DNA of 64,000 bases from assembly GCA_038205015.1 (NCBI GenBank), contig JBBRCK010000003.1, positions 2,527 to 66,526 on the forward strand, given 5' to 3'. This stretch comes from Candidatus Levyibacteriota bacterium (GTDB lineage Bacteria > Patescibacteriota > Microgenomatia > Levybacterales > UBA12049). A program made the translations under genes and the position numbers. Below the pieces are notes generated by a model. That model ran no database searches. It worked only from the letters and a program-made list of their open reading frames with translations, and was not told the DNA's origin. Numbering within the stretch: the stretch's first letter is position 1; each line of letters begins with the position of its first letter. Shown here piece after piece: positions 1 to 36,385 of the stretch.

Positions 1-10
1 AAACAGGTTT

Positions 11-2773
11 ATGGATAGCTCATCTGGCCAAGTGGCGCTGGAGCGTGGCGATCGTCGCCAAATTGAAGGCGTAGTTAGTCCTGATACAAAAGTAGAATTA
101 AGCGCGGTGGTTGTAAGTGGCTATCGGGATTTTGCCAGGGACCACACGCAAAAATTAATAGATTTAGTAAATGCTGGACGTTATGAGGCAATGAAAGCGC
201 AGCAAGCCACAGGTCAGGTGGCGTATCTGGAGGATAATGAATTACTTAGACTTTTTTCAGAAACTGCTGCTAACGGAACGCTGCTTCAGGTAAAATCTCA
301 ACAAGAAGTTGCAGATATTATCGCAAAACACCCATATATGATACAAAACCTTGCAGTTATAGGTGAAAGAGTTGCACGGGATAACTTAGCAGCCCTAGGA
401 ATGAGAGCTTATATGGATAGGCCCGGAACAAGAACGCGAATTGAAGATGCTCAAAGAGTAATCGATTTACCAGTTGGTCAGGGAAGAGTGACAGAGGCAT
501 ATAGCAGAGTGGTTGAGTGGGCAAACGCCAGGCAAGAACAGGGTGGAAGAGTGGGTGATCATACCAACCTACAAGATTTAGGCATTAGACTTAATAGTCG
601 TACATCCAGAGGTGTTCTTGCCACAAGCATGGCTACGGGGCTTTTATTTGGTGGCCCAGGGGGAGCTGCAGTTGGAGGCGCCCTGGCAGGAGCAGGTCTT
701 TTTGTTGGAAGTAGGCTAACAAAAGAGGGTCCAAGTATACATATTGTGCGCGATCAAAGTGTTTTAGATCGGGCACAACAGCCGGAAGAGCAGGCCAGAA
801 TGGAAGGGATTATAAAAGTTGATCCTAATCATCCCGAACGCACAACCAGAGAGCAGTTAGCAGAGGGAGAAGCGATTAAGCTGATTTATCTTAGAGCGCT
901 GTATATGAAAGACTTAAAAGTTGACCCCAGCAACTTGGATGCGTTTTCAGATCAATTTATTGATAACAATTGGGGTCCAGATGGCGCACAGACGCCCGAA
1001 AAAACTGACACTAAAATGCAGGCGGCAATTAATGAGCAATTTAATACTCTTGGTGGTCCTATGGCAGCAACTCCCGAGGATGCAAGGATAATATTTAGAA
1101 GAGCAGAAGAAATTGTTTTTATGGAGCAATTTAGATTAATACATGAAGAAAGTAAACCTGCGGTTGATACGGCAAAATTATTAACCGGAAAGCTGGTTGA
1201 AATGCAACCCGGTGGAGCTGTTGATAAAGCCAGAAAACGTGAAGCGGCAGAGGAAAAGACCTTGTTGGGAAAAGACAAAGCGGGTGTTGAGGTAACACGG
1301 GTGGCAGTGGAAAGCATGGCAGGGAAAATTAAAACATTAGTAGACGCAGATACTGTATTAAATGATGAATTAGCAAAAATTGTTGGACCTGCTGGGGCAT
1401 TAGATTATATAAATGCAGTCGCGGCTTTAAATGAAATGTTAAGTACTACAGTTGCAGCGGGCGCTAGTGTTAGAGTTGAAAATGCAGACGGTGTTCCGGT
1501 TGAGATTAGGGCAATTCCTGCTGAAGAGGAAGCCGCAAAAGCCGACGCAAGAGCAGCGATAGCTGCCATTCCACCACAGGGTACTATGACGACAATGCAA
1601 TATGATAGATTTCTCCAAAAAGCCGAGACCGATATTAATGATAGGCTCACTGCAAAACTGGAAGAATTTAAGGTTCAGCGTAAATTGATTGGAGATACGC
1701 TTACTAAATTAAGAGCTGCTCAAAAAGCCACCACAGAAACAAGGCCGGTTATAGAATCCGGAGAAGTAATTAAAGGAGCACAAGAGCTCGTTAAAATACA
1801 AGATGCATTTGATAGAGTTACTACGGCAGGTTTTACGGAAGCACATTTGTTAGCTTTTAATTTTGATCAAGAAATGGCAGACGCTAATCTTTTGAACTCA
1901 ATGAATCCTGATTTGGGTTGGCCGGAAAGCGATAATGAGATAATGCGTCCGGATCTTAGAAGCGCAATAATTCAAGCTAGAGCAAATAATAGAGAAAGAA
2001 CAAGCGTGCCTAATGCGACTGTTGTAGAAACTAATTTTAACACAGCGCGGGCTTTAAATTTTACCCTAGAAGAGCTTTCAATTTTAACTTCGGATGAATT
2101 GGTTATTTTATCTACCTCGCGAACTCCAGCTGGAACAACACGGATGACAAGACCACAGCTAATAAGAGCTCAATTGTGGGCAAGAGAAAAAGTAAGATAT
2201 ACGCAAGAGGCGATTAGACAGGAAAATACCAATATTGAATCTGCAGAAAGAGTTCAGGATGTAAATTTAGCCAGGGTTGACATGAAAGAAGAAAGGGAGC
2301 AGCTTGAAATGGTAATAGATGTTGTTAAGCATAAACAGCAAATTGAAGCTCGGGCAAATAATGCCTGGATTGACAGAGAGGTTAGAACCAGCCTTGAAGA
2401 CGTTAATCCCGTAACGGTGGTGGCCAATAGTTATACTCCCGCAGAAGTAGCTTCGGGTCTTCCGCGAAATGTACTGGAAATTATTAATATTTTAACTGAT
2501 TATCAAAATAAGTCGGATAGAAATGGCGCTTTTTCACAGATTTGGAGAAACTTTGGTTCTGTACCCAACGGGATACTTTTAGAAAGATTAAATAGCGCCT
2601 TTGAGTTTACACCGGCAATTGGCCCCGGCATACCCGATATTAATGTGTTCGCAGCCGAAATTCAAAATAGAGAAAACACCAGTCCAACTTTTAGTATGGA
2701 ATTAGGTAGAGCGCTAGGGCGCAATGCAGTTAGAGAATTTGGGCAGTGGGGAGAAAGTTTAAGTAGAATATGA
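11..2773 (+). CDS. Large hypothetical protein (920 aa visible; frame is open to window edge so N-terminus may be truncated); glycine-zipper membrane-like segment ATSMATGLLFGGPGGAAVGGALAGAGLFVGS, remainder Ala/Glu/Arg-rich predicted helical
   Basis: Long uninterrupted ORF; no stop in frame between pos 2-10; composition visibly GC/Ala-richer than neighbours; no catalytic motif recognised. Confidence 0.5.
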   Translation: MDSSSGQVALERGDRRQIEGVVSPDTKVELSAVVVSGYRDFARDHTQKLIDLVNAGRYEAMKAQQATGQVAYLEDNELLRLFSETAANGTLLQVKSQQEVADIIAKHPYMIQNLAVIGERVARDNLAALGMRAYMDRPGTRTRIEDAQRVIDLPVGQGRVTEAYSRVVEWANARQEQGGRVGDHTNLQDLGIRLNSRTSRGVLATSMATGLLFGGPGGAAVGGALAGAGLFVGSRLTKEGPSIHIVRDQSVLDRAQQPEEQARMEGIIKVDPNHPERTTREQLAEGEAIKLIYLRALYMKDLKVDPSNLDAFSDQFIDNNWGPDGAQTPEKTDTKMQAAINEQFNTLGGPMAATPEDARIIFRRAEEIVFMEQFRLIHEESKPAVDTAKLLTGKLVEMQPGGAVDKARKREAAEEKTLLGKDKAGVEVTRVAVESMAGKIKTLVDADTVLNDELAKIVGPAGALDYINAVAALNEMLSTTVAAGASVRVENADGVPVEIRAIPAEEEAAKADARAAIAAIPPQGTMTTMQYDRFLQKAETDINDRLTAKLEEFKVQRKLIGDTLTKLRAAQKATTETRPVIESGEVIKGAQELVKIQDAFDRVTTAGFTEAHLLAFNFDQEMADANLLNSMNPDLGWPESDNEIMRPDLRSAIIQARANNRERTSVPNATVVETNFNTARALNFTLEELSILTSDELVILSTSRTPAGTTRMTRPQLIRAQLWAREKVRYTQEAIRQENTNIESAERVQDVNLARVDMKEEREQLEMVIDVVKHKQQIEARANNAWIDREVRTSLEDVNPVTVVANSYTPAEVASGLPRNVLEIINILTDYQNKSDRNGAFSQIWRNFGSVPNGILLERLNSAFEFTPAIGPGIPDINVFAAEIQNRENTSPTFSMELGRALGRNAVREFGQWGESLSRI

Positions 2774-3144
2774 TTACAACCAAAGCCATAATTAATTTAT
2801 TACCATTTCAAAGCGAGTTTAAACTCGACTTGTTAGAGAAGTTTGATACTTTGTCGGAAGAAGAACAGGCAAGAACCGCTGATATTATTTGGCAAGCATT
2901 TTATATGGTGTATGATATAAAGCTTAAAAATAATGTTGACAAAATTATGACAGAAGCGGATAAAAACGGTGAAAAATTTGATCCCACTTTTTATAAAAAA
3001 GCAGCCGACAGAACTGATGATGAAATTAGGGAATTATTGGCCTCATCATCTCAAACGCTTGATTTGGAAGAAGCGAGAAAAAGCATGGAAATGATTATTA
3101 GAGAAATTAATGCCGCGAAAACAAGTAGGCCACTTAAGAATTAA
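2770..3144 (+). CDS. Small acidic hypothetical protein (124 aa), start overlaps stop of upstream ORF (ATGA), likely translationally coupled partner
   Basis: ATG at 2770 overlapping TGA 2771-2773; same strand; no recognisable domain. Confidence 0.45.
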   Translation: MITTKAIINLLPFQSEFKLDLLEKFDTLSEEEQARTADIIWQAFYMVYDIKLKNNVDKIMTEADKNGEKFDPTFYKKAADRTDDEIRELLASSSQTLDLEEARKSMEMIIREINAAKTSRPLKN

Positions 3145-4936: not shown

Positions 4937-4945
4937 TTTTTCAAG

Positions 4946-5030
4946 CGGAGGAGGTGAGATTTGAACTCACGATCCCTTGCGGGATGGCGGTTTAGTAAAC
5001 CGCTGCACTAGGCCACTATGCGACTCCTCC
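4946..5030 (-). tRNA. Type II (long variable arm) tRNA, Ser-like (G73 discriminator); anticodon loop reads UUACUAA giving nominal anticodon ACU, which is atypical
   Basis: Manual cloverleaf on minus strand: acceptor GGAGGAG/CTCCTCC, D-arm GCA..TGC, anticodon stem GCGGT/ACCGC, variable hairpin ATCCC-GCAA-GGGAT, T-arm GTGAG-TTCAAAT-CTCAC; no encoded CCA. Confidence 0.65.
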
Positions 5031-5660
5031 GGGTATATTTATTATTTTATCAAACTGCTCATAAATTCCAATCACTTTTAGTTGTATTTTATAGTCAGAA
5101 TATCTTATTGTACATGTTCCCATATAATCTTTTCTATATTTTTTGCCCCTTGGTATCGTAATGGTAGGTTTTATAAATTGAGATGTGGGAATTTTTAATA
5201 AATTACTCCAATATTTACTTATTTCATTAAAATTTTGAGTGGAATGAATTTGGAGTTTTACTCGAAATTTTGCTTCATTTAGCGGAAAGCTTATGCGAAG
5301 CAGTCTTATAAACAATTGTAATAGTAAAGGATCGGAGTTTGTCATATCAAGTTTGTTAGTAGAGGGATATTTTGAACCTTCACACCAATAAATAATAGAG
5401 ACAAGTATTTTTGCGGTAGTTTTATCAAAAATTTTAAAGTTTTTGATTATATCTTTCTCTGATGTTTTTATATCGTTTCTTCTTCTCTCATATGTTTTTA
5501 ATAAAGTGTCCCAACGTGTTGAGGAATTATCGTGCTTGCACCAATTACGAATGGTGGTTGCCGGTATTCCTGTTATTTCCTGCAGCTTTGTAAAAGAATA
5601 ATGGTATTTTGTGCGTAGGTTTTGTGCTTTTTCTAAGTCTTTGTCTTGATATTTTCTCAT
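5016..5660 (-). CDS. HTH-domain protein with C-terminal LAGLIDADG-like motif (ILVSIIYWCEGSK); putative homing-endonuclease-like / tRNA-locus-associated protein; paralog of 33841..34533
   Basis: N-terminal HTH-like TKLQEITGIPATTIRNW; shares blocks with paralog (YWxEG, NxDP, KFRVKLQIHS/IKVELHLYS, ISKYWSNLLKIP/IKFWEKELGIP, GTC); start 3 nt after tRNA-Ser 3' end, stop TAG inside downstream tRNA D-loop. Confidence 0.55.
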   Translation of the reverse strand: MRKYQDKDLEKAQNLRTKYHYSFTKLQEITGIPATTIRNWCKHDNSSTRWDTLLKTYERRRNDIKTSEKDIIKNFKIFDKTTAKILVSIIYWCEGSKYPSTNKLDMTNSDPLLLQLFIRLLRISFPLNEAKFRVKLQIHSTQNFNEISKYWSNLLKIPTSQFIKPTITIPRGKKYRKDYMGTCTIRYSDYKIQLKVIGIYEQFDKIINIPGGVA

Positions 5661-5662
5661 GG

Positions 5663-5750
5663 TGGCGGAGGGTACAGGATTCGAACCTGTGGACGGCTAT
5701 TCACCGTCACGGCTTAGCAAGCCGCTCTATTACCACTCTAGCAACCCTCC
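5663..5750 (-). tRNA. tRNA-Ser (anticodon GCU), CCA encoded
   Basis: Minus-strand cloverleaf GGAGGGT...ACCCTCC-G-CCA, anticodon stem GCGGC/GCCGT loop TTGCTAA, long variable arm GACGG-TGAATA-GCCGTC, T-arm ACAGG-TTCGAAT-CCTGT. Confidence 0.85.
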
Positions 5751-26308: not shown

Positions 26309-26773
26309 TTGCCTTTTAAATTTATGAAGTGTCCATATTGCGGAAGCAAAGAAACAGAAGTAGTAGAAACCAGAGACTCTGAAGACCTGGAGACAATAAG
26401 AAGAAGGCGAGAGTGTATAACGTGTAAGAAAAGGTTTACAACTTACGAACGAATAGAAAACATTAATTTAATAGTAATCAAAAAAGACGGAAAACGGGAG
26501 CAGTTTAACAGAGATAAATTAAAAGCCGGAATAATCAGATCTTGCGAAAAAACAAAAGTATCTCTTGAAGATATTGAAAAAATAGTAACGGAAATCGAAA
26601 GAGAATTAAGGGGAGAAGCGAGTGTTGAGGTTGAAAGTAAGAAAATCGGACAAATGGTTGCCAGTAGGCTTAAGGCACTAGATAAAGTCGCTTACATCAG
26701 ATTCTCGAGCGTTTTTAGAAGATTTGTAGATGTAGAGGATTTTGAAAAAGAAGTAAAAAGATTAATAAAATAA
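26309..26773 (+). CDS. nrdR: Transcriptional repressor NrdR (zinc ribbon + ATP-cone)
   Basis: MKCPYCGS...CITCKKRFTTYERIE zinc ribbon; ATP-cone IVIKKDGKREQFNRDKL. Confidence 0.9.
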   Translation: MPFKFMKCPYCGSKETEVVETRDSEDLETIRRRRECITCKKRFTTYERIENINLIVIKKDGKREQFNRDKLKAGIIRSCEKTKVSLEDIEKIVTEIERELRGEASVEVESKKIGQMVASRLKALDKVAYIRFSSVFRRFVDVEDFEKEVKRLIK

Positions 26774-26775
26774 TT

Positions 26776-29205
26776 ATGAAATTAGACGGAATGAGACAAA
26801 AAGTATTTTTAGACAGATATTCTTTAAGAGATACCAAGGGTAATCCTACAGAGAAAACCCCGGATGAGATGTGGAAGAGGGTTGCAAAGGCAATTTCCGG
26901 AGTTGAAAAACCAAAAGACCGCAAAAAATGGGAGAAAAAGTTTTACGACGTAATGGATGGCTTTAAATTTTTACCAGGAGGAAGAATTTTATCAGGTGCT
27001 GGAACAGGATATGACGTTACATACTTTAACTGCTTTGTAATCCCAAACCCACCAGACTCCCGCGAGGGGATAATGGAAAATTTAACCCAAATGATTGAGA
27101 TTATGGCAAGAGCAGGTGGAGTGGGAGTTAATTTATCTTCCCTTCGGCCAAGAGGGTCAAGAGTTAAAAAGGTTAATGGATTTTCTTCAGGACCTTTAAA
27201 TTGGGCGTCACTTTATTCAGTAGCGACAAAAGATATTGTTCAGCAGGGTGGTTCAAGGAGGGGAGCGTTAATGCTAATGCTTAATGATTGGCATCCGGAT
27301 ATAGAAGAATTCATAACCAAGAAGCAGGATTTAACTCAGCTTAACGGGGCTAACCTTTCGGTTTGTGTTTCCGATGCTTTTATGGAAGCTGTTAAGAAAA
27401 ATGCAGATTGGGATTTAGTCTTTGCAGACTTAGATGATAAAAAATATGACACAAAATGGACAGGAGATATGGATGTGTGGAAAAAATTAGGCGGAAAAAC
27501 AAAAGTTATAAAAACAGTGAAAGCAAAGGATCTCTGGGATTTAATTTGTAAGGCAGCATGGACTTCTGCCGAGCCAGGTCTTCACTTTTTGGATAGAAGT
27601 AATAAGAGAAGTAATACTTGGTATTTCGAAAGACTTTCAGCCACAAATCCTTGCGGAGAACAACCTTTATCTCCTTGGGCAGTTTGTAATTTAGGCGCAA
27701 TGAATTTAGCAGCCTACGTTGATAAAAAGGGTCAGTTTGACTATGACAATTTTGGAAAAGATGTAAAGGTTGCCATGCGATTTTTAGACAATGTAATTGA
27801 CGATACGTATTATTTTTATAAGGAAAATGAAAAAGTTGCCAAAGATATTAGAAGAACCGGACTTGGAATTTTGGGACTGGCAGACGCTTTAATCAAAATG
27901 AAAGTTAAATACGGTTCTGACGAATCCTTACCGGTTATTGAAAAAATATTTAAAACCTTAAGAGATAATGCGTATATTGCATCTTCTGACATGGCCGTTG
28001 AAAAAGGAATTTTTCCTAAATTTAACAAAGAAAAATATTTACAAGGTTTCCATTTAAAAAAACTTCCTGAAGAAATAAGACAAAAAATTGCAAAACAAGG
28101 AATAAGAAATGCAGTTTTATTAACAATTGCCCCAACAGGAACGACAGGTCTTCTTTCGGGAGCTTCATCGGGGATTGAGCCAGTTTATGAATTCCAGTTT
28201 ATAAGAAAGGATAGGCTTGGTGAACACATGATGTATCACCCACTCTATGAAGAGTTCAAAAAAGAAAATCCAAATGTAGAAAAACCGGATTATTTTGTCT
28301 CGGCAAATGATTTAACTCCAGAAGAGCACGTTAGAGTTCAAGCAATTGCTCAGGATTATATCGATTCATCAATTTCAAAAACCGTTAATGCACCCAAAAC
28401 ACATACGGTTGATGACGTAAAAAGACTTTATGAATTAGCCTACGACTCTGGTCTTAAGGGAATTACTTATATGAGGGATGGATCAAGACAAGGAGTTTTA
28501 GAAAGAGTTGAAGAGAAAAAAGAAGAAGTAAAAGAACTACCAAAACAACTAGCCAGCCTTCCGGTTATGCCAAGGCCGGTGATGGTAGAAGGGGTAACGT
28601 ATCAGTCAGATACTCCGGTTGGTAAAACCTTTATAACTATTAATCACAATGAAGGTAATGAGCCATTCGAAGTGTTTATAACGGTTGGAAAATCTGGATC
28701 AGACGTAACCGCAATGGCTGACGCATTAGGAAGAATGATTTCTCTTAATCTAAGACTTAACGGGGGACTTGCACCACGAGAAAGAGTTAGGCAAATTGTT
28801 GCGCAGCTGATTGGAATCGGCGGAGCGAGATCAATTGGTTTTGGTGCAAATAAAGTTTTGTCTCTTCCCGATGCCGTTGCTAAAGTACTTTCCAAGCATT
28901 TTGAGTTTAGGGTTAACGGGGTAGTAGAAGATAGGCCAAGAATTGTTAATGGAGTAGAAAATGGCCACACTAGCGGAAACGGACACGCGCAGGCTATGTC
29001 AGCAGCTCAAGAAAGTATTAAAAAAGATAAAGAAGAAATCGTTAAGCTTGAGCAATTAAGTTTGCAAACTCCATCGGGCTCTTTGTCTGTAACTGAAGGA
29101 ACGGCGACAGGACTTTATGATATCTGTCCGGACTGCGGCGGAGCAAGTTTGGCATATGAAGAAGGTTGTAAAAAATGTTATGCATGCGGATATTCCGAAT
29201 GCTAG
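26776..29205 (+). CDS. nrdJ: Ribonucleoside-diphosphate/triphosphate reductase, class II (adenosylcobalamin-dependent) NrdJ-like
   Basis: ATNPCGEQPL active-site block, C-terminal Cys cluster CPDCGG...CKKCYACGYSEC; no NrdB partner; B12 salvage genes adjacent. Confidence 0.8.
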   Translation: MKLDGMRQKVFLDRYSLRDTKGNPTEKTPDEMWKRVAKAISGVEKPKDRKKWEKKFYDVMDGFKFLPGGRILSGAGTGYDVTYFNCFVIPNPPDSREGIMENLTQMIEIMARAGGVGVNLSSLRPRGSRVKKVNGFSSGPLNWASLYSVATKDIVQQGGSRRGALMLMLNDWHPDIEEFITKKQDLTQLNGANLSVCVSDAFMEAVKKNADWDLVFADLDDKKYDTKWTGDMDVWKKLGGKTKVIKTVKAKDLWDLICKAAWTSAEPGLHFLDRSNKRSNTWYFERLSATNPCGEQPLSPWAVCNLGAMNLAAYVDKKGQFDYDNFGKDVKVAMRFLDNVIDDTYYFYKENEKVAKDIRRTGLGILGLADALIKMKVKYGSDESLPVIEKIFKTLRDNAYIASSDMAVEKGIFPKFNKEKYLQGFHLKKLPEEIRQKIAKQGIRNAVLLTIAPTGTTGLLSGASSGIEPVYEFQFIRKDRLGEHMMYHPLYEEFKKENPNVEKPDYFVSANDLTPEEHVRVQAIAQDYIDSSISKTVNAPKTHTVDDVKRLYELAYDSGLKGITYMRDGSRQGVLERVEEKKEEVKELPKQLASLPVMPRPVMVEGVTYQSDTPVGKTFITINHNEGNEPFEVFITVGKSGSDVTAMADALGRMISLNLRLNGGLAPRERVRQIVAQLIGIGGARSIGFGANKVLSLPDAVAKVLSKHFEFRVNGVVEDRPRIVNGVENGHTSGNGHAQAMSAAQESIKKDKEEIVKLEQLSLQTPSGSLSVTEGTATGLYDICPDCGGASLAYEEGCKKCYACGYSEC

Positions 29206-29214
29206 TTGATTAAA

Positions 29215-29346
29215 AGTTAAATATAGGTAATCTTGGTGTAAATCCAGGGCTGTGCCGCAACTGTTAAAGTCAGAAAACTATATTTAATTTAAATGCCCGA
29301 GCAGGACACTATCATATCCTTCTCGGAATAAGAGAAGGATTTTTTT
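29215..29346 (+). promoter_or_regulatory. Cobalamin (B12) riboswitch with intrinsic terminator expression platform, upstream of DUF4430-membrane-PduO operon
   Basis: AGGUAAUCUUGGUGUAAAUCC, GCUGUGCCGCAACUGU, AGUCAGAAAAC match Cbl riboswitch core/B12 box; terminator CCTTCTC-GGAATAA-GAGAAGG + T7 at 29318-29346. Confidence 0.6.
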
Positions 29347-29709
29347 ATGAAAAGCAAAATAATAATTCTTATCACCTTAGTAGTTTTAGTTTTAACAGTA
29401 ACTGGTGTAGTGATAACTAATGTTAAAAATAAACCAGTAAGTGGTCAATTAATAGTAGCTGCTAAAACAACAGATGCCTTTTCTTATAAGGGTGAGAATG
29501 GAAAAAACGCGCTAATAATCTTAAAAAAAATGGCGAAAGTTGAGCAGGGTTCAAGCGGTTTGGTTACATCAATCAATGGTAGATTAGCACTTAGTTTAAA
29601 AAGAGAGTTCTGGGCTTTTTATGTAAACGGAAAGATGGCAAATGTTGGTCCCGCCGAGTATAATACCAAAGATCAAGATTTAATTAAATGGCAAATAGAA
29701 AAATATTAA
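29347..29709 (+). CDS. DUF4430-like small exported/membrane-anchored protein (family recurrently associated with cobalamin uptake operons)
   Basis: N-terminal TM/signal, C-terminal FWAFYVNGKMANVGPAEY...DLIKW block. Confidence 0.45.
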   Translation: MKSKIIILITLVVLVLTVTGVVITNVKNKPVSGQLIVAAKTTDAFSYKGENGKNALIILKKMAKVEQGSSGLVTSINGRLALSLKREFWAFYVNGKMANVGPAEYNTKDQDLIKWQIEKY

Positions 29710-30230
29710 TGAAAAAAATAATAAGTCCAATCTCTATAATTTTATTCGCAGTAATTTTAAGATTACTACCGCATCCGCCAAATTTAGTTCCGATCGCTGC
29801 AATGGCGTTGTTTGGAGGTTATTATCTTAATAAGAAATTTGCGCTAGTAATTCCTTTGATTGCTATGTTTATTTCAGACATTTTTTTAGGTTTTCATGCA
29901 ACTATGCCGTATGTTTACGGGAGCTTTCTTTTAACAGGAATATTGGGCTTATGGCTAAAAAACCATAGACACGCGAGAAATATTGTTGGAGGGACATTAT
30001 TATCGTCAATTGCATTCTTCTTAATTACAAATTTTGGGGTTTGGGCACAAGGCTCGTATGCAAGAGATGTTAGTGGGCTTTTCCAAAGCTATATCATGGG
30101 AATACCTTTTCTTAGAAATACTCTGCTTGGTGATCTTGGTTATGTTGGTTTGTTTTTCGGTTCTTATGAACTAGCTAAGTTTTTGATATTAGAGCATGGT
30201 TTCAGTAGGGTATTAACGATTAAAAAATAA
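29709..30230 (+). CDS. Small polytopic membrane protein, candidate B12 transporter substrate-capture (ECF S-like) component; ATG 29709 overlapping upstream stop (TAATG) preferred over 29688
   Basis: 5-6 hydrophobic helices, ~174 aa, sits between riboswitch-controlled DUF4430 and PduO; function by context only. Confidence 0.35.
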   Translation: MKKIISPISIILFAVILRLLPHPPNLVPIAAMALFGGYYLNKKFALVIPLIAMFISDIFLGFHATMPYVYGSFLLTGILGLWLKNHRHARNIVGGTLLSSIAFFLITNFGVWAQGSYARDVSGLFQSYIMGIPFLRNTLLGDLGYVGLFFGSYELAKFLILEHGFSRVLTIKK

Positions 30231-30231
30231 C

Positions 30232-30777
30232 ATGCCAATTTATACACGATTTGGTGATAAAGGAAAGACAGCTCTTCATACCGGAAAAACAGTTTCTAAG
30301 GCGAGCACAAGGGTAGAAGCCTATGGAAATTTAGATGAATTAAATAGTTTTTTAGGAGTTGTTTTATTCGAGCTTAAAGATAAAAAAATAAAAGCAGAAA
30401 TTTTACAAATTCAAAATGATTTATTTGAAATTGGCGCAAACCTTGCGGGGCCGGGGGAAAAAGGGTATTCGGGATTTGGAGAAAAATTAAAAAAAAGAGT
30501 GCTGGAGTTTGAAAAGACAATCGATGTATTAACAAATAAGCTCCCTAAGCTTAAAAACTTTATTTTGCCAGGCGGAAAAACAGGCTCGCTTTTGCATTAT
30601 GCCAGAACTGTTTCCAGGCGCGCCGAAAGAAGGACTGTTGCATTAGCCGGAAAAGAAGAGGTTTTAGAAGAAGTGTTGATTTATTTAAATAGACTTTCGG
30701 ATCTTTTATTTACATTTGCAAGATATATAAATTATAAAGAAAAACAAAAAGAAACCATTTGGACTACAAAGCCTTAG
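30232..30777 (+). CDS. PduO-type ATP:cob(I)alamin adenosyltransferase
   Basis: MPIYTRFGDKGKTALHTG...EAYGNLDELNSFLGV typical PduO/MMAB N-terminus. Confidence 0.85.
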   Translation: MPIYTRFGDKGKTALHTGKTVSKASTRVEAYGNLDELNSFLGVVLFELKDKKIKAEILQIQNDLFEIGANLAGPGEKGYSGFGEKLKKRVLEFEKTIDVLTNKLPKLKNFILPGGKTGSLLHYARTVSRRAERRTVALAGKEEVLEEVLIYLNRLSDLLFTFARYINYKEKQKETIWTTKP

Positions 30778-30818: not shown

Positions 30819-33770
30819 ATGGACGACGCTGCTCAGAAACAAAATCCAAATCCGAATTTGAAACCCGATCAAGTTTTAGTAAATGGCCAACCGCAGGTAA
30901 ATAATCAACAACCCCCACTAGTTGGTACAGCCAACAAAGAAGCTGGAGTGAGTACTCCATATATTGAACGCTCTCAGCCGGAGATTAAAACTGACTTTTC
31001 TACTCAGGGATTTATTCAAAATACTCAAGCACCTGTTCCGCACGTTCCTGAAGTAGGCCTAGAAGCTAGCGCAGAATCAACACCTGTACAAACAGAGCCA
31101 ACCGGCAAGGTTGTTTTGCCGATGACAGAAGGCGAAGCAGACAAGACTTTAAATAAGAGCCAGTCGAAATTTAATTTACATGAAAATATAGAAGGTGAAT
31201 ATACAGAAGATTCATTACCGTTTTTTGCAACGTTAATAAAAAAAATTTTTAAAGAAATGCGCAAAAGACTTGTTCCCGGTCCCTCAATGTTAGCATTCTT
31301 GCCGCTTATTCCTATGGCTTATGCACAACAAACAGTTGACTTATGTCCAAGAGGAAACTTTCGCATATTATGCTTTCTTACTGCTCAGCGGGCTGTGACA
31401 ACAGTGTCAAGTTCAAATTCTTCAGGGGCAAATATTTTACTGGCAATTTTTTTAGTACTGGTAATTTTATCTGTAACAGTTTTATTAATTCTTGGAATTT
31501 TATACCTTTTATTCATTTGGTATAAAAACAGGGATAGAGAAAAACAATCTCTTGAATCAACGCTCTTACAGATTGCAGTTCCTAAGGATAATGAAATAAA
31601 AATCGATGCCGCAGAACAGCTTTTTGCAAGTTTTTCCGGAATACGAGCTCATGGAATGTTTGCTTTTTTAAAGAATCCTCCGCATATCTCCTTTGAAATA
31701 GTGGGAATGTCCGAGGATATAAAATTTTATATTTATACCCCAAATAAATATAGAGATATGGTAGAAAAACAAATTAATGCCTCATATCCGGATGCAGAGA
31801 TAAGGGTGGTTGAGGAAAAAGGAGCTAAAGAGGGATATATTATTGGTAATGAATACAATATTTTCAGTAAAGATGGAAAAGTTGCTTTTGCATCGTTAAA
31901 ACTGAAAGATTCAAATTATAAGCCTTTAAAAGTCTACAAAGACTTTGCAGTTGATCCGCTGGCTTCAATCACTTCGGTTTTAGCTAAAATGAGTCATGGA
32001 GAAGGTGCGGCAGTTCAGATTTTAATAACAGGTGCTGATTCCAAGTGGAGTAAGATGGGGAGAAAATTTATCTCGGGTGTCAAGAAAACAGAATCAAATC
32101 CCGAGACCGCTAAGTATTCGGCAGACCCTAAAGAGCTGGAGGCAGTCGAGGGTAAAGTATCCAAACCCGGCTTTCAAGCGGTAGTAAGGCTTGTGGTGTC
32201 TTCAAGTTCGCAAGAAGCAGCCACGGTGCACCTTGAAAATATTATTAATTCCTTCGGACAATTTGAAGGATATAACGCTTTTACTAAAAATAAACACTGG
32301 CTTAAAGGGAATTTTATAACAGATTTTGTCTATAGATTTTTCCCATCGGGCGGTAATCTTTCGATTCTAAATAGCGAAGAATTAGCGAGCATGTTCCATT
32401 TTCCAAATAAAAGTGTTACTACGCCTCATATTTATTGGATTAACGCAAAAAGAGCTCCCGCGCCGGCACAAATTCCGGATTCAGGACTATATCTTGGTAT
32501 GAGTACTTTTAGGGGAATTGCTAAACCTGTATATATGAGAGATGACGATAGAAGAAGACACACTTACATTATTGGAAAAACAGGTGTTGGAAAATCGGAA
32601 ATGTTAAAACAAATGATTCTCCAGGATGTTAATGAGGGAAAAGGACTTGCGGTAATTGATCCGCATGGAGATTTAATCGAAGATGTTATGAAAATGATTC
32701 CTCCGGAAAGAGCAGAGGATGTAATCTTATTCGATCCTTCGGATACTGAAAGACCGCTGGGATTAAATATGTTAGAGGCAAAAACTGAGCAGGAAAAACA
32801 CTATATTGTTTCTTCAATCGTAGGACTTATGTACAAGCTTTACGATCCAAACAAGACCGGCATCATTGGCCCTAGATTTGAGCATGCCATTAGAAATGCA
32901 ATGCTTACGGTAATGAGTGAACCTGGAAGCACTTTTATAGAGGTGGTAAGAGCCCTAACCGATGCAAATTTCGTCCAAGAGCTACTTCCAAAAGTGCAAG
33001 ATCCGATAGTCAGGCGTTACTGGACAGACCAGATTGCTCAAACTAATGATTTTCATAAGTCCGAAACTCTTGATTATATAGTTTCTAAATTCGGAAGATT
33101 TGTTACTAACAAAATGATTCGAAACATTATCGGACAAAGTGAATCTGCTTTTGATTTCAGAAAGATAATGGATGAGGGGAAGATTCTTTTAGTTAATTTA
33201 TCTAAAGGAAAAATCGGAGAAGAAAACGCAGCCTTTTTAGGCTTAGTTTTGGTTCCTAGAATTTTAATTGCCGCCATGAGCAGGCAAGATATTGCACAGG
33301 AAGATAGAAAAGACTTTTACCTGTACGTTGACGAATTCCAGAATTTTGCAACTCCTGATTTTGCCCAAATTCTATCCGAAGCCAGGAAGTTTAAATTAAA
33401 CTTAATCGTTGCCAATCAGTTTATCGGACAAATGGATGAAGATGTTAAAAACGCGATTTTTGGAAACGTTGGAACAATAATGTCATTTAGAGTTGGCGTA
33501 ACAGATGCAAATTATCTGATGCATGAATTCCAACCGGTTTTTACAGAGACAGATTTAATTAATGTTGATGTTTATAACGCATATGTAAAGACAATAGTAG
33601 GGAACGAGCCGGTTACGCCTTTTTCCATTGATACTTCAAAAGATATGACTAAGGAAAAGGGCTTAGAGAATCCAAGAGTGGCAGAACTTGTCAGGGAGCT
33701 TTCCAGGCTAAAATATGGAAAAGATGTGGCGAGCCTTGAGGTTAATATTGCGCAAAGAGCCAGGCTGTAA
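30819..33770 (+). CDS. Membrane-anchored P-loop ATPase of FtsK/HerA superfamily (VirD4/TraD/TraG-coupling-protein-like); Q/P/N-rich disordered N-terminus (~160 aa), 2-3 TM, C-terminal ATPase
   Basis: Walker A YIIGKTGVGKSEML, DPHGDL, Walker B LYVDEFQNF, NLIVANQF; low-complexity N-terminus NPNPNLKPDQVLVNGQPQVNNQQPPL. Confidence 0.6.
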   Translation: MDDAAQKQNPNPNLKPDQVLVNGQPQVNNQQPPLVGTANKEAGVSTPYIERSQPEIKTDFSTQGFIQNTQAPVPHVPEVGLEASAESTPVQTEPTGKVVLPMTEGEADKTLNKSQSKFNLHENIEGEYTEDSLPFFATLIKKIFKEMRKRLVPGPSMLAFLPLIPMAYAQQTVDLCPRGNFRILCFLTAQRAVTTVSSSNSSGANILLAIFLVLVILSVTVLLILGILYLLFIWYKNRDREKQSLESTLLQIAVPKDNEIKIDAAEQLFASFSGIRAHGMFAFLKNPPHISFEIVGMSEDIKFYIYTPNKYRDMVEKQINASYPDAEIRVVEEKGAKEGYIIGNEYNIFSKDGKVAFASLKLKDSNYKPLKVYKDFAVDPLASITSVLAKMSHGEGAAVQILITGADSKWSKMGRKFISGVKKTESNPETAKYSADPKELEAVEGKVSKPGFQAVVRLVVSSSSQEAATVHLENIINSFGQFEGYNAFTKNKHWLKGNFITDFVYRFFPSGGNLSILNSEELASMFHFPNKSVTTPHIYWINAKRAPAPAQIPDSGLYLGMSTFRGIAKPVYMRDDDRRRHTYIIGKTGVGKSEMLKQMILQDVNEGKGLAVIDPHGDLIEDVMKMIPPERAEDVILFDPSDTERPLGLNMLEAKTEQEKHYIVSSIVGLMYKLYDPNKTGIIGPRFEHAIRNAMLTVMSEPGSTFIEVVRALTDANFVQELLPKVQDPIVRRYWTDQIAQTNDFHKSETLDYIVSKFGRFVTNKMIRNIIGQSESAFDFRKIMDEGKILLVNLSKGKIGEENAAFLGLVLVPRILIAAMSRQDIAQEDRKDFYLYVDEFQNFATPDFAQILSEARKFKLNLIVANQFIGQMDEDVKNAIFGNVGTIMSFRVGVTDANYLMHEFQPVFTETDLINVDVYNAYVKTIVGNEPVTPFSIDTSKDMTKEKGLENPRVAELVRELSRLKYGKDVASLEVNIAQRARL

Positions 33771-33840: not shown

Positions 33841-34533
33841 ATGGCAAGAGTTATTGATAGACAAAAAGCAATTGAGTTAAGAAAGAAAGGTCAAACTTAC
33901 AGCGAAATAAGGCATAAGCTGAATATTTCTAAAAGCACGCTTTCTGATTGGTTATCAAAATTTCCGCTAACTGCAGAACAGTTAATTAAGCTTGAAAAGA
34001 GTAGAAAACGAAATAACTTTTTGGGCATAGAAAAAATTAGATTAACAAAACAAAGGAAAAGAGAAAATCGAATAAATACTATTTATGAAATAGAAAAAAA
34101 ACGTTGGCGGTCTTTAAGTATTAAAGAACTTGAGTTGGCGGGCCTTTTCCTTTATTGGGGAGAAGGGAGGAAAAACCTAAAAAGCGCCTTGGCAATTAAT
34201 AATACAGATCCACAAGTGGTTAAATTTGCCTTACGCTGGATGACAGAAGCATTAAAAATTTCCAAAAACAGAATTAAAGTAGAATTGCATCTTTATTCGG
34301 ATATGAATATATTAAGCGAGATAAAATTTTGGGAAAAAGAGCTTGGAATTCCAAAGTTTCAATTTTATAAGCCTTACATAAAAATAAATACTAAAGCCGC
34401 AGTTGACCATAAGGGGTTTGGGCATGGCACATGTGGGTTGATCGTAAATGATGTTAGGCTAAAAGAAAAAGTTATGATGAGTATTAAGGCAATTTCCAAT
34501 CGATGTTCTACGAAAATTGAAGCTATGGTATAA
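33841..34533 (+). CDS. HTH-domain protein with LAGLIDADG-like motif (ELAGLFLYWGEGRK); paralog of 5016..5660; stop 12 nt before tRNA-Ile
   Basis: HTH GQTYSEIRHKLNISKSTLSDWL; conserved blocks shared with paralog (see 5016..5660). Confidence 0.55.
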   Translation: MARVIDRQKAIELRKKGQTYSEIRHKLNISKSTLSDWLSKFPLTAEQLIKLEKSRKRNNFLGIEKIRLTKQRKRENRINTIYEIEKKRWRSLSIKELELAGLFLYWGEGRKNLKSALAINNTDPQVVKFALRWMTEALKISKNRIKVELHLYSDMNILSEIKFWEKELGIPKFQFYKPYIKINTKAAVDHKGFGHGTCGLIVNDVRLKEKVMMSIKAISNRCSTKIEAMV

Positions 34534-34545
34534 TTATCTTTACTT

Positions 34546-34617
34546 GCGCCTGTAGTTCATCGGTAGAACAATTGTCTTATAAACAATAGGTGTTTGGTTC
34601 GACTCCAAGCAGGCGCA
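34546..34617 (+). tRNA. tRNA-Ile (anticodon UAU)
   Basis: Acceptor GCGCCTG/CAGGCGC, D GTTC..GAAC, anticodon stem ATTGT/ACAAT loop CTTATAA, T-arm TTTGG-TTCGACT-CCAAG, discriminator A. Confidence 0.75.
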
Positions 34618-34638
34618 CAGCGTCTTAATTTTTTTGCT

Positions 34639-35499
34639 TTAAAGTTCGGTTAAAACTGAAGAATCTTTGCCGCGTTCTGGCACATACTGGAGATATCTTT
34701 CGGTTGTTGAAAGTCTTTTATGCCCTAAAACCTTAGATAGGGAAACTAGTGACACCCCATGTTTTAAGTGATGAGCAACGAAAGTATGTCTTAAATCATT
34801 TACCTTGGCATCTTTAATTTCTGCTAATCTAAAATACCTTTCAACCGCGGTTCTAATGTTTCTAATTAAGAAAGGTTTTCCGGATTTAGTAATAAAAAGG
34901 TGGTCGTCAGTCACTTTTGGCCTTAAATCTGAATATCTAGCTAATGCTTCTTGAGCTCTTTTGTTTAATGGAACAATTCTGTCGGCATGTTTTTCAAAAG
35001 GTGAAATATGTAGCGTGTCTTTGGTTACGTCGGAAAGTCTAAGGTTAGCAAGCTCACCGATTCTAATACCGGTTTGCAAGAGTAATTCTATAACAGCAAA
35101 CATTCTGGCGTCGTTTCTTGCAGCATCGCGTAGCGCTCTGTATTCGGTCGGAGTAAGTATTCTAGGTGGAGCAAGCTGGTACTTAGGGTGTGAGACTAAA
35201 AGGGAAGGGTCGTCGGTAATATATTCGCTTACTTTTAAGAATCTATAAAAAGTTCTGGTGGAGTTAATTTTTCGAGAAATTGACTTTGGAGTATAGCCTT
35301 CTTTACCTAGTTTTGCCAAAAATGCTTCGATATCTTCTTTTGCAACTTCATGAACCTGATTTCTTTGAAGCTCTTCTAAAAAGGCTATTAATTGGTCAAT
35401 ATCTTTACCGTATGCAACCACAGTAGAAGCAGACTTTTTGTTGTCCTTTAAAAAGTTTTTAAATTCATTATGGGCATCTCTTAATTTGATTGGTTTCAT
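34639..35499 (-). CDS. Tyrosine recombinase XerC/XerD-like
   Basis: N-terminal SAM-like core-binding domain; C-terminal R...HxxR...Y: LRHTFVAHHLKHG...GHKRLSTTERYLQ. Confidence 0.85.
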   Translation of the reverse strand: MKPIKLRDAHNEFKNFLKDNKKSASTVVAYGKDIDQLIAFLEELQRNQVHEVAKEDIEAFLAKLGKEGYTPKSISRKINSTRTFYRFLKVSEYITDDPSLLVSHPKYQLAPPRILTPTEYRALRDAARNDARMFAVIELLLQTGIRIGELANLRLSDVTKDTLHISPFEKHADRIVPLNKRAQEALARYSDLRPKVTDDHLFITKSGKPFLIRNIRTAVERYFRLAEIKDAKVNDLRHTFVAHHLKHGVSLVSLSKVLGHKRLSTTERYLQYVPERGKDSSVLTEL

Positions 35500-36096: not shown

Positions 36097-36385
36097 GCGG
36101 GGTAGTGTACAGTGCACGTGAGGCTTAATAAAATGGGCCGTTTTGATAGTAATATTAAAAATGAACTTGGCTATATCGGTGAACTCCTGATTAAATCAGG
36201 ACAATACCGAGGGAAGTCCTTAAAAAAGACCCCGTAGAGACTACACGCCGAGCTCCCCAATTTAATTGGGGATGATGATATAGTCCGACACTCTAAGTAA
36301 TTGGAGAAACAGTGCATAATCTCACAGGCTAGGCGCAACTCCTAGCCCCGCAACAAGTTAACCCACTTCGAAAGATGTGGGTTTT
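36097..36385 (+). ncRNA. Candidate structured ncRNA (~290 nt), identity unresolved (RNase P RNA-like GAGGGAAGUCC element but not confirmed)
   Basis: Extended -10 TGcTATAAT at 36078-36086. 5'/3' closing helix GCGGGG/CCCCGC. Several perfect hairpins: CCCCAAUU-UAAUUGGGG, GGCUAGG-CGCAACU-CCUAGCC, UCCUGAUU-AAA-UCAGGA. Intrinsic terminator at 36361-36386. No ORF of 60 aa or more. Confidence 0.35.

What the first reader, a model, noticed from the sequence alone, without database searches (positions are those of the whole stretch)
11..3144. Compositionally foreign 920-aa glycine-zipper protein plus translationally coupled small ORF at window edge
- The first ORF is visibly GC- and Ala/Gly/Arg-richer than the rest of the window (the first few hundred nt look near 45-50 percent GC).
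- It is open to the window start, so it may be longer.
- It contains a glycine-zipper membrane-like segment (GLLFGGPGGAAVGGALAGAGLFVG), as seen in pore-forming or secreted toxins and membrane-inserting effectors.
- The rest is long helical sequence.
- It is followed by a small acidic ORF with an ATGA start/stop overlap, reminiscent of effector-immunity or chaperone pairing.
- No homology to housekeeping families was recognised. It is a candidate horizontally acquired effector or surface protein.
Basis: partly seen in the sequence, partly recalled or inferred. Interest (0 to 1): 0.55.

Follow-up and report, generated by a model that had tools for sequence, protein, structure and literature searches.

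The report
Conserved membrane-hairpin protein and small partner
The two genes are real and belong to the host genome, not to imported DNA: they are part of a three-gene set of unknown function, conserved in a group of tiny (probably Patescibacteria/CPR) bacteria and, in some relatives, sitting inside the type IV secretion gene cluster.

Summary
An ORF open to the window start (2..2773, +) overlaps a 124-aa acidic ORF (2770..3144) by ATGA. It carries a 34-residue uncharged glycine-zipper segment and has the highest GC of 56 ORFs.

The "foreign" reading fails. GC3 is normal. The GC expected from the amino-acid composition with the window's own codon preferences (0.422) matches the observed 0.429. 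Relatives show the same excess and the same gene order.

The full protein is 969 aa; 46 codons lie upstream of the window. It has 115 cluster representatives, nearly all 900-1050 aa, and 102 of 103 long members have the Gly-rich segment near residue 230. The small partner follows it in all 13 lineages examined and is better conserved than the large protein. A tail-anchored acidic protein is always encoded divergently upstream, across a 48-54 bp region that reads as two overlapping promoters.

In 5 of 13 lineages the trio touches type IV secretion genes, in two different gene orders; it does not in this window. No Pfam, NCBIfam, PHROG, PADLOC, PDB, plasmid, phage or pCF10 match was found.

Best guess (0.4): a membrane-anchored cytoplasmic complex accessory to the secretion system. 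A secreted pore-former with its chaperone is not excluded.

The parts
2..2773 (+). Coding sequence of the large protein ('B'), residues 47-969 of 969. The first 46 codons and the promoter lie upstream of the window.
   Evidence: ORF list and translation. P0001 (969 aa) is 100% identical, and L001 holds the full gene. The N-terminal 49 aa are conserved in P0002.
182..559 (+). Conserved N-terminal domain (full-length residues 107-232): Y-EAMK, Y.ED..ML..F, ER.ARD.LAA.G.RA, PG.RT, DQG, GGR motifs.
   Evidence: Alignments A3 and A6 and the conservation profile.
611..712 (+). Glycine-zipper hydrophobic segment (full-length residues 250-283) with a central GGP, flanked by Arg residues. Proposed membrane (re-entrant) hairpin.
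   Evidence: It is the only consistent hydrophobic segment. It is present in 102 of 103 long family members, with median length 40 aa, 24% Gly and a start near residue 232 +/- 32. A faint match to the SlyB Gly-zipper exists in PDB (E 0.23).
1913..1987 (+). Conserved 'GWPE ... R..IIQARAN' motif (full-length residues 684-708). W686 is invariant in 60 members.
   Evidence: Alignments A5 and A6.
2432..2557 (+). Most conserved block of the family (full-length residues 857-898): Y..AE..SGLPRNVLE..NILT.YQ...DRNGAF..IW.N.G. E861 and Y880 are invariant.
   Evidence: Alignments A5 and A6 and the conservation profile.
2770..2773 (+). ATGA stop/start overlap that couples translation of the small partner to the large protein.
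   Evidence: Sequence. By the gene calls, the same 4-nt overlap occurs in 9 of the 12 other lineages examined. L018 probably has it too if a later ATG is used (not checked). L021 and L023 have 4-7 nt gaps.
2770..3144 (+). Small acidic partner ('C'), 124 aa, predicted to be five helices.
   Evidence: 25 homologous clusters at 34-59% identity, always directly after a large family member. AF2 pLDDT is 85. pI is 4.88.

Best explanation
**What it is.** The finding is most of a native, vertically inherited three-gene module. The module is restricted to a lineage of small-genome bacteria; Patescibacteria/CPR is inferred from context, not proven.

**Components.**
- A: a 355-597 aa acidic helical protein with a single C-terminal (tail-anchor) hydrophobic segment. 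It is encoded divergently, just upstream of the window.
- B: the ~970-aa helical protein of the finding.
- C: the 124-aa acidic five-helix protein, made by termination-reinitiation at the ATGA overlap and therefore in step with B.

**Proposed mechanism (inferred).**
- B inserts into the cell's own membrane through its Gly-zipper helix-GGP-helix hairpin. Both large helical domains stay in the cytoplasm.
- C binds B as a stoichiometric stabilising subunit or chaperone.
- A joins them at the membrane.
- The complex works as a cytoplasmic-face accessory platform of the lineage's type IV secretion apparatus (VirB2-like pilins, PrgI/VirB3, TrsD-like, VirB4), which typically lacks a nearby coupling protein.
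- A and B-C are driven by two fully overlapping back-to-back sigma70-like promoters. These leave almost no leader, so the mRNAs would be leaderless.

**Shown versus inferred.** Shown: the genes, their conservation, the coupling, the native composition, the hydrophobic segment and the neighbourhoods. Inferred: topology, complex formation, the T4SS role and the leaderless transcription.
For: **Native, not imported**
- GC3 z = 0.8.
- Observed GC 0.429 against 0.422 expected from amino-acid composition.
- The family-wide GC excess appears in 11 of 12 loci.
- Synteny is conserved with the upstream gene and the P-type ATPase.
- The family is absent from plasmids, phages and IMG/VR.

**A real family**
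- 115 representatives, 94 with E<=1e-10, almost all 900-1050 aa.
- The Gly-rich uncharged segment is present in 102 of 103 long members.

**The trio is conserved even at about 20% identity** (L021, L022, L023).

**Partner, not immunity**
- C is better conserved than B.
- The ATGA overlap is conserved in most lineages.

**T4SS link**
- In L009/L010, L011/L012, L018 and L020 the trio lies between T4SS_pilin genes and 23S_rRNA_IVP-PrgI-TraC-like-VirB4-hydrolases.
- In L023/L024, whose protein is about 22% identical, four pilin genes follow it convergently. This is a different gene order.
- The window itself encodes a VirD4/TrwB-like protein at 30819-33770.
- The published Patescibacteria T4SS descriptions match these clusters (PMC12102498; PMC10633639).

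**Cytoplasmic orientation**
- B has no signal peptide.
- A has a tail anchor.
- Arg residues lie at both edges of the hydrophobic segment; the N flank averages +1.3 against a background of -0.15.

**Promoters**
- TTGAAA-17-TAATAA and its mirror image lie in a 48-54 bp divergent region.
- The exact palindrome pattern TAGTTGA-N14-TCAACTA occurs once per locus in 13 fetched loci (about 8 distinct) and nowhere in the window.
Against: - In the window's own clade and in 8 of 13 lineages, no T4SS gene lies within about 10 kb. tblastn with the L009/L011 T4SS proteins finds nothing in the 64-kb window.
- Four of the five T4SS-adjacent lineages form one clade, so there are only about two independent associations.
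- No trio protein shows homology to any pCF10 T4SS component; hhalign probabilities are all below 7%.
- Topology is not established. The C-flank charge is near neutral (+0.24), and the segment in this protein (15 + 18 residues) is short for two full spans.
- The structure of B could not be predicted (pLDDT 38).
- Taxonomy was not verified: records are titled only 'MAG: bacterium'.
Confidence: 0.4

Rival explanations
1. B is a substrate of the type IV secretion system. It would be a helical protein that inserts its glycine-zipper hairpin into the membrane of the host bacterium to form a pore or conduit. C would be its cytoplasmic chaperone or adaptor, and the highly conserved C-terminal block would act as the export signal. 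This is a refined form of the first reader's effector-plus-chaperone idea.
For: - The Gly-zipper segment is the family hallmark.
- The partner is small, acidic, helical and translationally coupled.
- The strongest conservation lies in the C-terminal ~110 residues.
- B has no Sec signal.
- The trio is embedded in T4SS clusters in 5 lineages.
- These T4SSs are thought to export proteins rather than DNA (PMC10633639; PMC12102498).
- Own knowledge: known T3SS translocator-chaperone and IcmQ-IcmR pairs have this layout.
Against: - Homology is full-length with a fixed size, and only one copy was seen per locus examined. There is no domain shuffling.
- C is more conserved than B.
- A tail-anchored partner A points to a resident membrane complex.
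- The module persists away from T4SS genes in most lineages.
- There is no match to XVIPCD-type or other effector domains in Pfam.
Confidence: 0.22
2. The trio is a housekeeping membrane or cell-envelope organiser of this lineage, for example a scaffold for division, membrane shaping or cell-surface assembly. It would have no mechanistic tie to type IV secretion, and the adjacency in some genomes would be historical accident.
For: - Most lineages, including the window, place it among housekeeping genes: P-type ATPase, histidine phosphatase, SmpB/tmRNA, SpoIID, PBPs.
- It is deeply conserved, and its tightly conserved promoter region suggests a core function.
Against: - T4SS genes are a small part of such genomes, yet they flank the trio in two different arrangements.
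- There is no similarity to any known cytoskeletal or division protein in Pfam, NCBIfam or PDB.
Confidence: 0.25
3. A horizontally acquired toxin/effector-immunity island, as the finding's title suggests.
For: - It has the highest GC of the window's ORFs.
- It has a glycine zipper.
- A small ORF lies downstream.
- tRNA-Ser genes lie about 2 kb downstream.
Against: - Codon usage is native.
- Synteny is conserved in relatives.
- The small ORF is more conserved than the large one.
- There are no plasmid, phage, viral or defence-library matches.
- There are no mobility genes next to it.
Confidence: 0.03
4. A prophage remnant: a tape-measure-like protein, which is long, helical and carries Gly-rich hydrophobic segments, together with its chaperone.
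For: General resemblance only: length, helicity and a Gly-rich hydrophobic stretch (own knowledge of tape-measure proteins).
Against: - No PHROG match.
- No relatives in IMG/VR or in INPHARED phages.
- No phage genes in any of the roughly 20 neighbourhoods.
Confidence: 0.02

Closest known systems
Patescibacteria type IV secretion clusters (Quinonero-Coronel et al. 2025, PMC12102498; Southlakia epibionticum SEML1_0006-0019, Wang et al. 2023, PMC10633639)
   Same: - In five related lineages the trio lies inside exactly this kind of cluster: VirB2-like pilin arrays, PrgI, TrsD/TraC-like, VirB4 and cell-wall hydrolases. In L010 the cluster is next to dnaN/dnaA.
- In Southlakia a 998-aa hypothetical protein (SEML1_0011) sits directly upstream of PrgI, the same position as B in L009/L011.
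   Different: - Neither paper describes B, C or A.
- SEML1_0011 was given a permease KEGG number and a fold match to a T4SS protein, and it has no small ORF after it. It may therefore be a different, polytopic protein.
- In the window the trio is not next to T4SS genes.
Membrane-inserting secretion-system proteins with small acidic chaperones (Legionella IcmQ-IcmR; T3SS translocators IpaB/YopB with IpgC/SycD) - own knowledge
   Same: - A helical protein with a central hydrophobic hairpin.
- An adjacent small acidic helical partner.
- A genomic tie to a secretion apparatus.
   Different: - No sequence, profile or fold similarity.
- B is two to five times longer.
- The partner is downstream and translationally coupled.
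- A third, tail-anchored component is present.
Glycine-zipper membrane proteins (SlyB/Gly-zipper_Omp families; VacA, CdzC/D-type pore formers) - own knowledge
   Same: Repeated GxxxG in an uncharged 30-50 residue stretch with a central turn. The family profile makes a faint match to SlyB (E 0.23).
   Different: - No Pfam Gly-zipper model matches at E<=1.
- Those proteins are small lipoproteins or secreted toxins. Here the zipper is an internal segment of a 1000-aa cytoplasm-type helical protein.

Membership tests
Horizontally acquired genomic island | Synonymous codon usage or GC3 deviating from the host genome | tested here: not met
   - GC3 is 0.302 against 0.271 +/- 0.038.
- Observed GC is 0.429 against 0.422 expected from amino-acid composition, z 0.7.
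- Synonymous log-likelihood z is -1.5.
Horizontally acquired genomic island | Patchy distribution, broken synteny, mobility genes at the borders | tested here: not met
   - The same flanking genes appear in relatives at about 33-43% protein identity.
- No adjacent integrase or transposase.
- No plasmid, phage or viral relatives.
Polymorphic toxin / effector-immunity pair | Modular toxin domain that varies between homologues, with a fast-evolving cognate immunity gene | tested here: not met
   - Homology is full-length and the protein length is constant.
- The partner is 59% identical where the large protein is 40-41%.
- One oddity remains: L005 diverges from L002 exactly after the ATGA junction. 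It is unresolved and may be an assembly chimera.
Glycine-zipper Pfam families (Gly-zipper_Omp, _OmpA, _YMGG) | Match to the family HMM | tested here: not met
   No Pfam family at E<=1 for the 920-aa protein.
Glycine-zipper motif (structural feature, not a family) | Repeated GxxxG in an uncharged hydrophobic stretch | tested here: met
   - 5 GxxxG motifs in 34 residues in this protein.
- The family median is 3 motifs in 40 residues, seen in 102 of 103 long members.
Type IV secretion core components (VirB1/PrgK, VirB3/PrgI, VirB4/PrgJ, VirB6/PrgH, VirB8/PrgL, VirD4/PcfC) | Sequence or profile homology to a prototype component | tested here: not met
   - No Pfam or NCBIfam hits.
- hhalign of the B, C and A profiles against 21 pCF10 proteins gives probabilities all below 7%.
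Type IV secretion accessory gene (by neighbourhood) | Encoded within or next to the virB4/pilin cluster | tested here: inconclusive
   - Met in 5 of 13 lineages, in two gene orders.
- Not met in the window or in 8 other lineages.
Secretion chaperone / adaptor (IcmR, IcmS/IcmW, T3SS class II) | Small acidic helical protein encoded next to, and co-expressed with, its client | tested here: met
   124 aa, pI 4.88, five helices at pLDDT 85, ATGA coupling, always adjacent.
Secretion chaperone / adaptor (IcmR, IcmS/IcmW, T3SS class II) | Homology or shared fold with a known chaperone, and binding to the client | tested here: not met
   - No PDB sequence match better than Rop-like noise (E 0.007).
- No Foldseek match at E<=0.001 in PDB or BFVD.
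- Binding is not testable with these tools.
Phage tape-measure protein | Match to PHROG tape-measure families, or a location among tail genes | tested here: not met
   - No PHROG match.
- No phage or viral-contig relatives.
- No phage neighbours.
Orthologue of Southlakia SEML1_0011 | Sequence homology to SEML1_0011 | not testable with these tools
   Only its length, position and annotations are available.

The most novel reading that the evidence does not exclude
The trio is a previously unrecognised functional arm of the Patescibacteria type IV secretion system. B would be exported, with C as its chaperone and A as its membrane receptor. It would drive its glycine-zipper hairpin into the host bacterium's membrane, forming the conduit through which these metabolically dependent epibionts take up host molecules.
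Probability: 0.15. Interest if true: 0.85.

Novelty: new variant of a known kind. Interest (0 to 1): 0.42.

Why it matters
Patescibacteria depend on host bacteria, and their unusual type IV secretion system is essential for epibiotic growth in the one species tested (PMC10633639). Its substrates and its substitute for a coupling protein are unknown.

This is a deeply conserved, unannotated three-gene module. It has a membrane-inserting segment and a chaperone-like partner, and it sits inside that cluster in several lineages. That makes it a concrete candidate for one of the missing parts and gives the field something to delete, localise and model.

The 48-54 bp region that appears to hold two fully overlapping divergent promoters has its core elements conserved across loci whose proteins are only about 20% identical. 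It is a small regulatory curiosity in its own right.

If the T4SS link proves accidental, this is simply one more conserved hypothetical family of a poorly studied phylum.

Tried and rejected
**Searches that found nothing or too little**
- Pfam, NCBIfam, PHROGs and PADLOC on B, C and A gave nothing above noise.
- The word-indexed homologue search for B found only 1 relative, and a second run with a 5-sequence profile found only self. Candidates were swamped by low-complexity words. The exhaustive HMMER search was needed to see the family.
- Profile searches of PDB sequences with B, A and C returned only coiled-coil, Rop or SlyB-level noise.
- tblastn of B against plasmids and phages found no match.
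- The IMG/VR scan found none. The metagenome scan found one locus. Genome scans found two loci titled only 'MAG: bacterium', so taxonomy is unresolved. Cluster look-up gave no names.
- A literature search by assembly accession, and one for 'glycine zipper' plus Patescibacteria, returned nothing.

**Structure**
- AF2 of B with a 2-sequence alignment gave pLDDT 38, which is unusable. Deeper alignments could not be submitted under the tool's sequence restriction.

**Comparisons**
- hhalign against the pCF10 T4SS proteins found no homology.
- There are no internal repeats in B.
- The homology between the two types of upstream gene is equivocal: hhalign probability 12%, over the C-terminal 90 residues only.
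- The positive-inside analysis of the hairpin flanks is suggestive for the N flank and neutral for the C flank.

**Readings rejected**
- Horizontal transfer.
- Toxin-immunity pair.
- Tape-measure protein or prophage remnant.
- Defence system.
Full report
**1. The observation**

The window starts inside a long + strand ORF. The first ATG is at 11 and the stop at 2771-2773. The frame is open back to base 2.

A 124-aa ORF (2770-3144) begins with an ATG that overlaps that stop as ATGA.

The first three kilobases have 46.1, 41.2 and 38.4% GC against 35.5% for the window. The ORF's 42.9% is the highest of 56 ORFs.

That stretch holds five GxxxG motifs and a central GGP.

The small ORF is acidic, with pI 4.88. 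Pfam and NCBIfam give nothing above noise for either protein. The description is therefore accurate. The one exception is glycine, which is not enriched overall: 6.6% in both this protein and the rest. Ala is 11.7% against 6.6% and Arg 7.8% against 3.5%.

**2. The true gene**

An identical protein of 969 aa (P0001) is on record. A 7.3-kb contig (L001) overlaps the window. It shows the start 147 nt upstream of window position 11. The extra 49 residues are conserved in the closest homologue.

**3. Not foreign**

The GC excess sits in codon positions 1 and 2 (0.564 and 0.421). GC3 is 0.302, against 0.271 +/- 0.038 for the other ORFs.

I re-coded the protein's amino-acid sequence with the synonymous preferences of the other 55 ORFs. 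This predicts 42.2% GC, and 42.9% is observed. The residual has z = 0.7, and synonymous-usage likelihood has z = -1.5. The composition therefore follows from an Ala/Arg/Glu-rich protein.

The same gene is GC-richer than its surroundings in 11 of 12 related loci. Gene order is kept in relatives whose proteins are only about 33-43% identical: a divergent upstream gene, then the large gene, the small gene and a convergent P-type ATPase.

No relative exists in 72,556 plasmids, 50,697 phage records or IMG/VR.

**4. The family**

The word-indexed search found one relative (39% identity, 968 aa). The exhaustive profile search of 1.84 billion cluster representatives found 115 proteins, 94 of them at E<=1e-10 and almost all 900-1050 aa.

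The proteins align over their whole length.

| Feature | Full-length residues |
|---|---|
| Variable N-terminus with an HPF motif | before 107 |
| Conserved N-domain | 107-232 |
| Gly/Ala-rich uncharged segment | 250-283 in this protein |
| Conserved juxtamembrane stretch (R..R.G.R, YLRA.Y, LDA.S.QF) | after 283 |
| Variable helical middle | middle third |
| 'GWPE...IIQARAN' motif | 684-708 |
| 'SGLPRNVLE..NILT.YQ...DRNGAF..IW' (best-conserved block) | 857-898 |

The Gly-rich segment is found in 102 of 103 long members. Its median length is 40 residues, it is 24% Gly, and it starts at residue 232 +/- 32. It is the only hydrophobic segment the family shares. There is no N-terminal signal-like sequence. 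There are no internal repeats.

AF2 with the two admissible sequences failed (pLDDT 38), although the model is mostly helical.

**5. The partner and a third gene**

The small protein has 25 homologous clusters at 34-59% identity. In every one of the 13 lineages whose neighbourhood I could read, it directly follows a large family member. The gene calls show the same 4-nt overlap in 9 of the 12 other lineages. L018 probably has it too if a later ATG is used, which I did not check. L021 and L023 have 4-7 nt gaps. This includes members only about 20% identical to the window protein (L021, L022, L023).

The small protein is better conserved than its large neighbour: 59% against 40-41% for the same genome pair.

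Its AF2 model is confident (pLDDT 85, five helices). The model matches nothing in PDB or BFVD at E<=0.001.

A gene is always encoded divergently upstream. Its product is a 355-597 aa acidic helical protein whose only hydrophobic segment is at the extreme C-terminus, that is, a tail anchor. Window-type and distant versions are homologous by BLAST. The versions in the T4SS-embedded clade are only equivocally related (hhalign probability 12%).

**6. The control region (just outside the window)**

The two divergent start codons are 48-54 bp apart in nearly all loci. Seven distinct loci, including L022, share the core TAGTTGA-N14-TCAACTAATAATA, ending 4-6 nt before the large gene's ATG. L022's protein is only about 21% identical to the window's.

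The exact pattern TAGTTGA-N(10-18)-TCAACTA occurs once in each of 13 fetched loci. Several of these are the same species, leaving about 8 distinct. It occurs nowhere in the 64-kb window, where 0.01 hits are expected by chance.

It reads as TTGAAA-17-TAATAA on the top strand and TTGATT-17-TATTAT on the bottom strand. These would be two fully overlapping back-to-back promoters, each leaving 5-9 nt before its ATG. Near-leaderless mRNAs and mutually exclusive polymerase binding are inferences from this reading.

L021 carries TACTTGA-N14-TCAAGTA, a change mirrored on both arms. L023 changed one arm only. A dimeric regulator site is therefore possible but not shown.

**7. Neighbourhoods**

There are two context classes.

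- *No T4SS genes nearby.* In the window's clade and several others the trio lies among housekeeping genes: P-type ATPase, histidine phosphatase, SmpB/tmRNA, SpoIID and PBPs.
- *Between pilins and PrgI/VirB4.* In L009/L010, L011/L012, L018 and L020 the trio lies between VirB2-like T4SS_pilin genes and a block of 23S_rRNA_IVP, PrgI, TraC/TrsD-like, VirB4 and envelope hydrolases. In L010 this block is next to dnaN/dnaA.
- *Pilins downstream.* In L023/L024 four pilin genes follow the trio convergently, a different arrangement.

These clusters match the published Patescibacteria T4SS (PMC12102498). In Southlakia epibionticum that system is essential for epibiotic growth and lacks recognisable coupling and relaxase proteins (PMC10633639).

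Southlakia has a 998-aa hypothetical protein (SEML1_0011) directly upstream of PrgI. I could not obtain its sequence. Its annotations (permease KEGG number, fold match to a T4SS protein, no small ORF after it) suggest it may be a different protein.

A rough NJ tree puts four of the five T4SS-adjacent lineages in one clade. There are thus about two independent associations.

The window has no VirB4, PrgI or pilin relatives by tblastn. It does encode a 983-aa VirD4/TrwB-like protein at 30819-33770.

**8. Interpretation**

*Shown.* This is a native, deeply conserved, co-expressed trio with one tail-anchored member, one Gly-zipper member and one small soluble member. It is recurrently, but not universally, tied to T4SS genes. 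It has no detectable relation to any curated family, to the pCF10 T4SS proteins, to defence systems or to phage proteins.

*Inferred.* B is anchored in the cell's own membrane by a helix-GGP-helix hairpin with both domains in the cytoplasm. The grounds are the missing signal peptide, the Arg-lined flanks and the tail-anchored partner. C is its stoichiometric partner or chaperone. The complex serves the T4SS at the cytoplasmic face.

I rate this at 0.4. The main rivals are:
- an exported pore-forming substrate with its chaperone (0.22);
- a T4SS-independent envelope organiser (0.25);
- horizontal acquisition, toxin-immunity and prophage readings, which are essentially excluded.

**9. Novelty and score**

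The genes are ordinary in the sense that they are conserved hypothetical proteins of an under-studied lineage. They are not the foreign effector island proposed.

They are nevertheless an undescribed family with a clear anatomy and a plausible link to a system whose substrates and docking components are unknown. Because function remains inferred and taxonomy unverified, I score interest at 0.42. I class it as a new variant of a known kind: an accessory or substrate module of a secretion system.

Noticed in passing
L001 2092-2139 (immediately upstream of the window; equivalent regions in L002, L007, L013, L015, L016, L019, L022, L023): A 48-54 bp divergent intergenic region carries the core palindrome TAGTTGA-N14-TCAACTAATAATA. 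It reads as two fully overlapping back-to-back sigma70-like promoters with almost no leader. Seven distinct loci share the core, although their proteins are only about 20-40% identical. L021 has a mirrored base change on both arms.
   Followed up: yes
window 36097-36350 (+): The Rfam group I intron (36116-36307) appears to interrupt an unannotated tRNA-like gene. The flanks read GCGGGG...GAGGCTTAA | intron | AATCTCAC...CCCCGC, so it may be tRNA-Leu(UAA). ARAGORN did not call it.
   Followed up: partly
window 4945-5750 (-): Two tRNA-Ser genes, one called with the odd anticodon ACT, flank a 214-aa ORF (5016-5660). The ORF has no Pfam match and overlaps the first tRNA by 15 nt.
   Followed up: no
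window 26309-30777 (+): Gene order: NrdR, then a class II (B12-type) ribonucleotide reductase, then an AdoCbl-II riboswitch (29209-29288), then DUF4430, DUF6580 and a PduO-type cobalamin adenosyltransferase. This looks like a riboswitch-controlled B12 salvage or uptake operon placed right behind its B12-dependent enzyme.
   Followed up: partly
window 30819-33770 (+): A 983-aa protein has a TrwB/VirD4-type coupling-protein domain (E 4e-10). It stands alone, far from any VirB4, as reported for many Patescibacteria.
   Followed up: partly
window 33841-35499: An HTH protein, tRNA-Ile(TAT) and a tyrosine recombinase (phage-integrase family) lie together. This may be an integration site or a Xer-type recombinase.
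   Followed up: no
L005 5023-5411 versus L002 8019-8405: L005 is 100% identical in DNA to L002 through the whole 2.9-kb large gene. It then drops to about 70% identity within about 10 nt after the ATGA junction. This is either a chimeric metagenome assembly or recombination exactly at the large/small gene boundary.
   Followed up: partly
L014 66-2616: In one relative the large gene is split into 103-, 312- and 128-aa pieces, while the small partner is intact. This is either frameshift errors in a long-read assembly or a pseudogene.
   Followed up: no
L009 1544-1750, L011 4996-5160 (also P0032, P0041): Members of the T4SS-embedded clade carry an extra ~45-residue Gly/Ala-rich, mildly hydrophobic N-terminal extension. 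The window protein lacks it.
   Followed up: no
L009 5138-6893, L011 1240-1623 and 8520-8897, L020 5105-5314: Genes for 23S_rRNA_IVP (four-helix-bundle, bAvd-like) proteins are interspersed in the T4SS clusters. One lies directly after the small partner.
   Followed up: no
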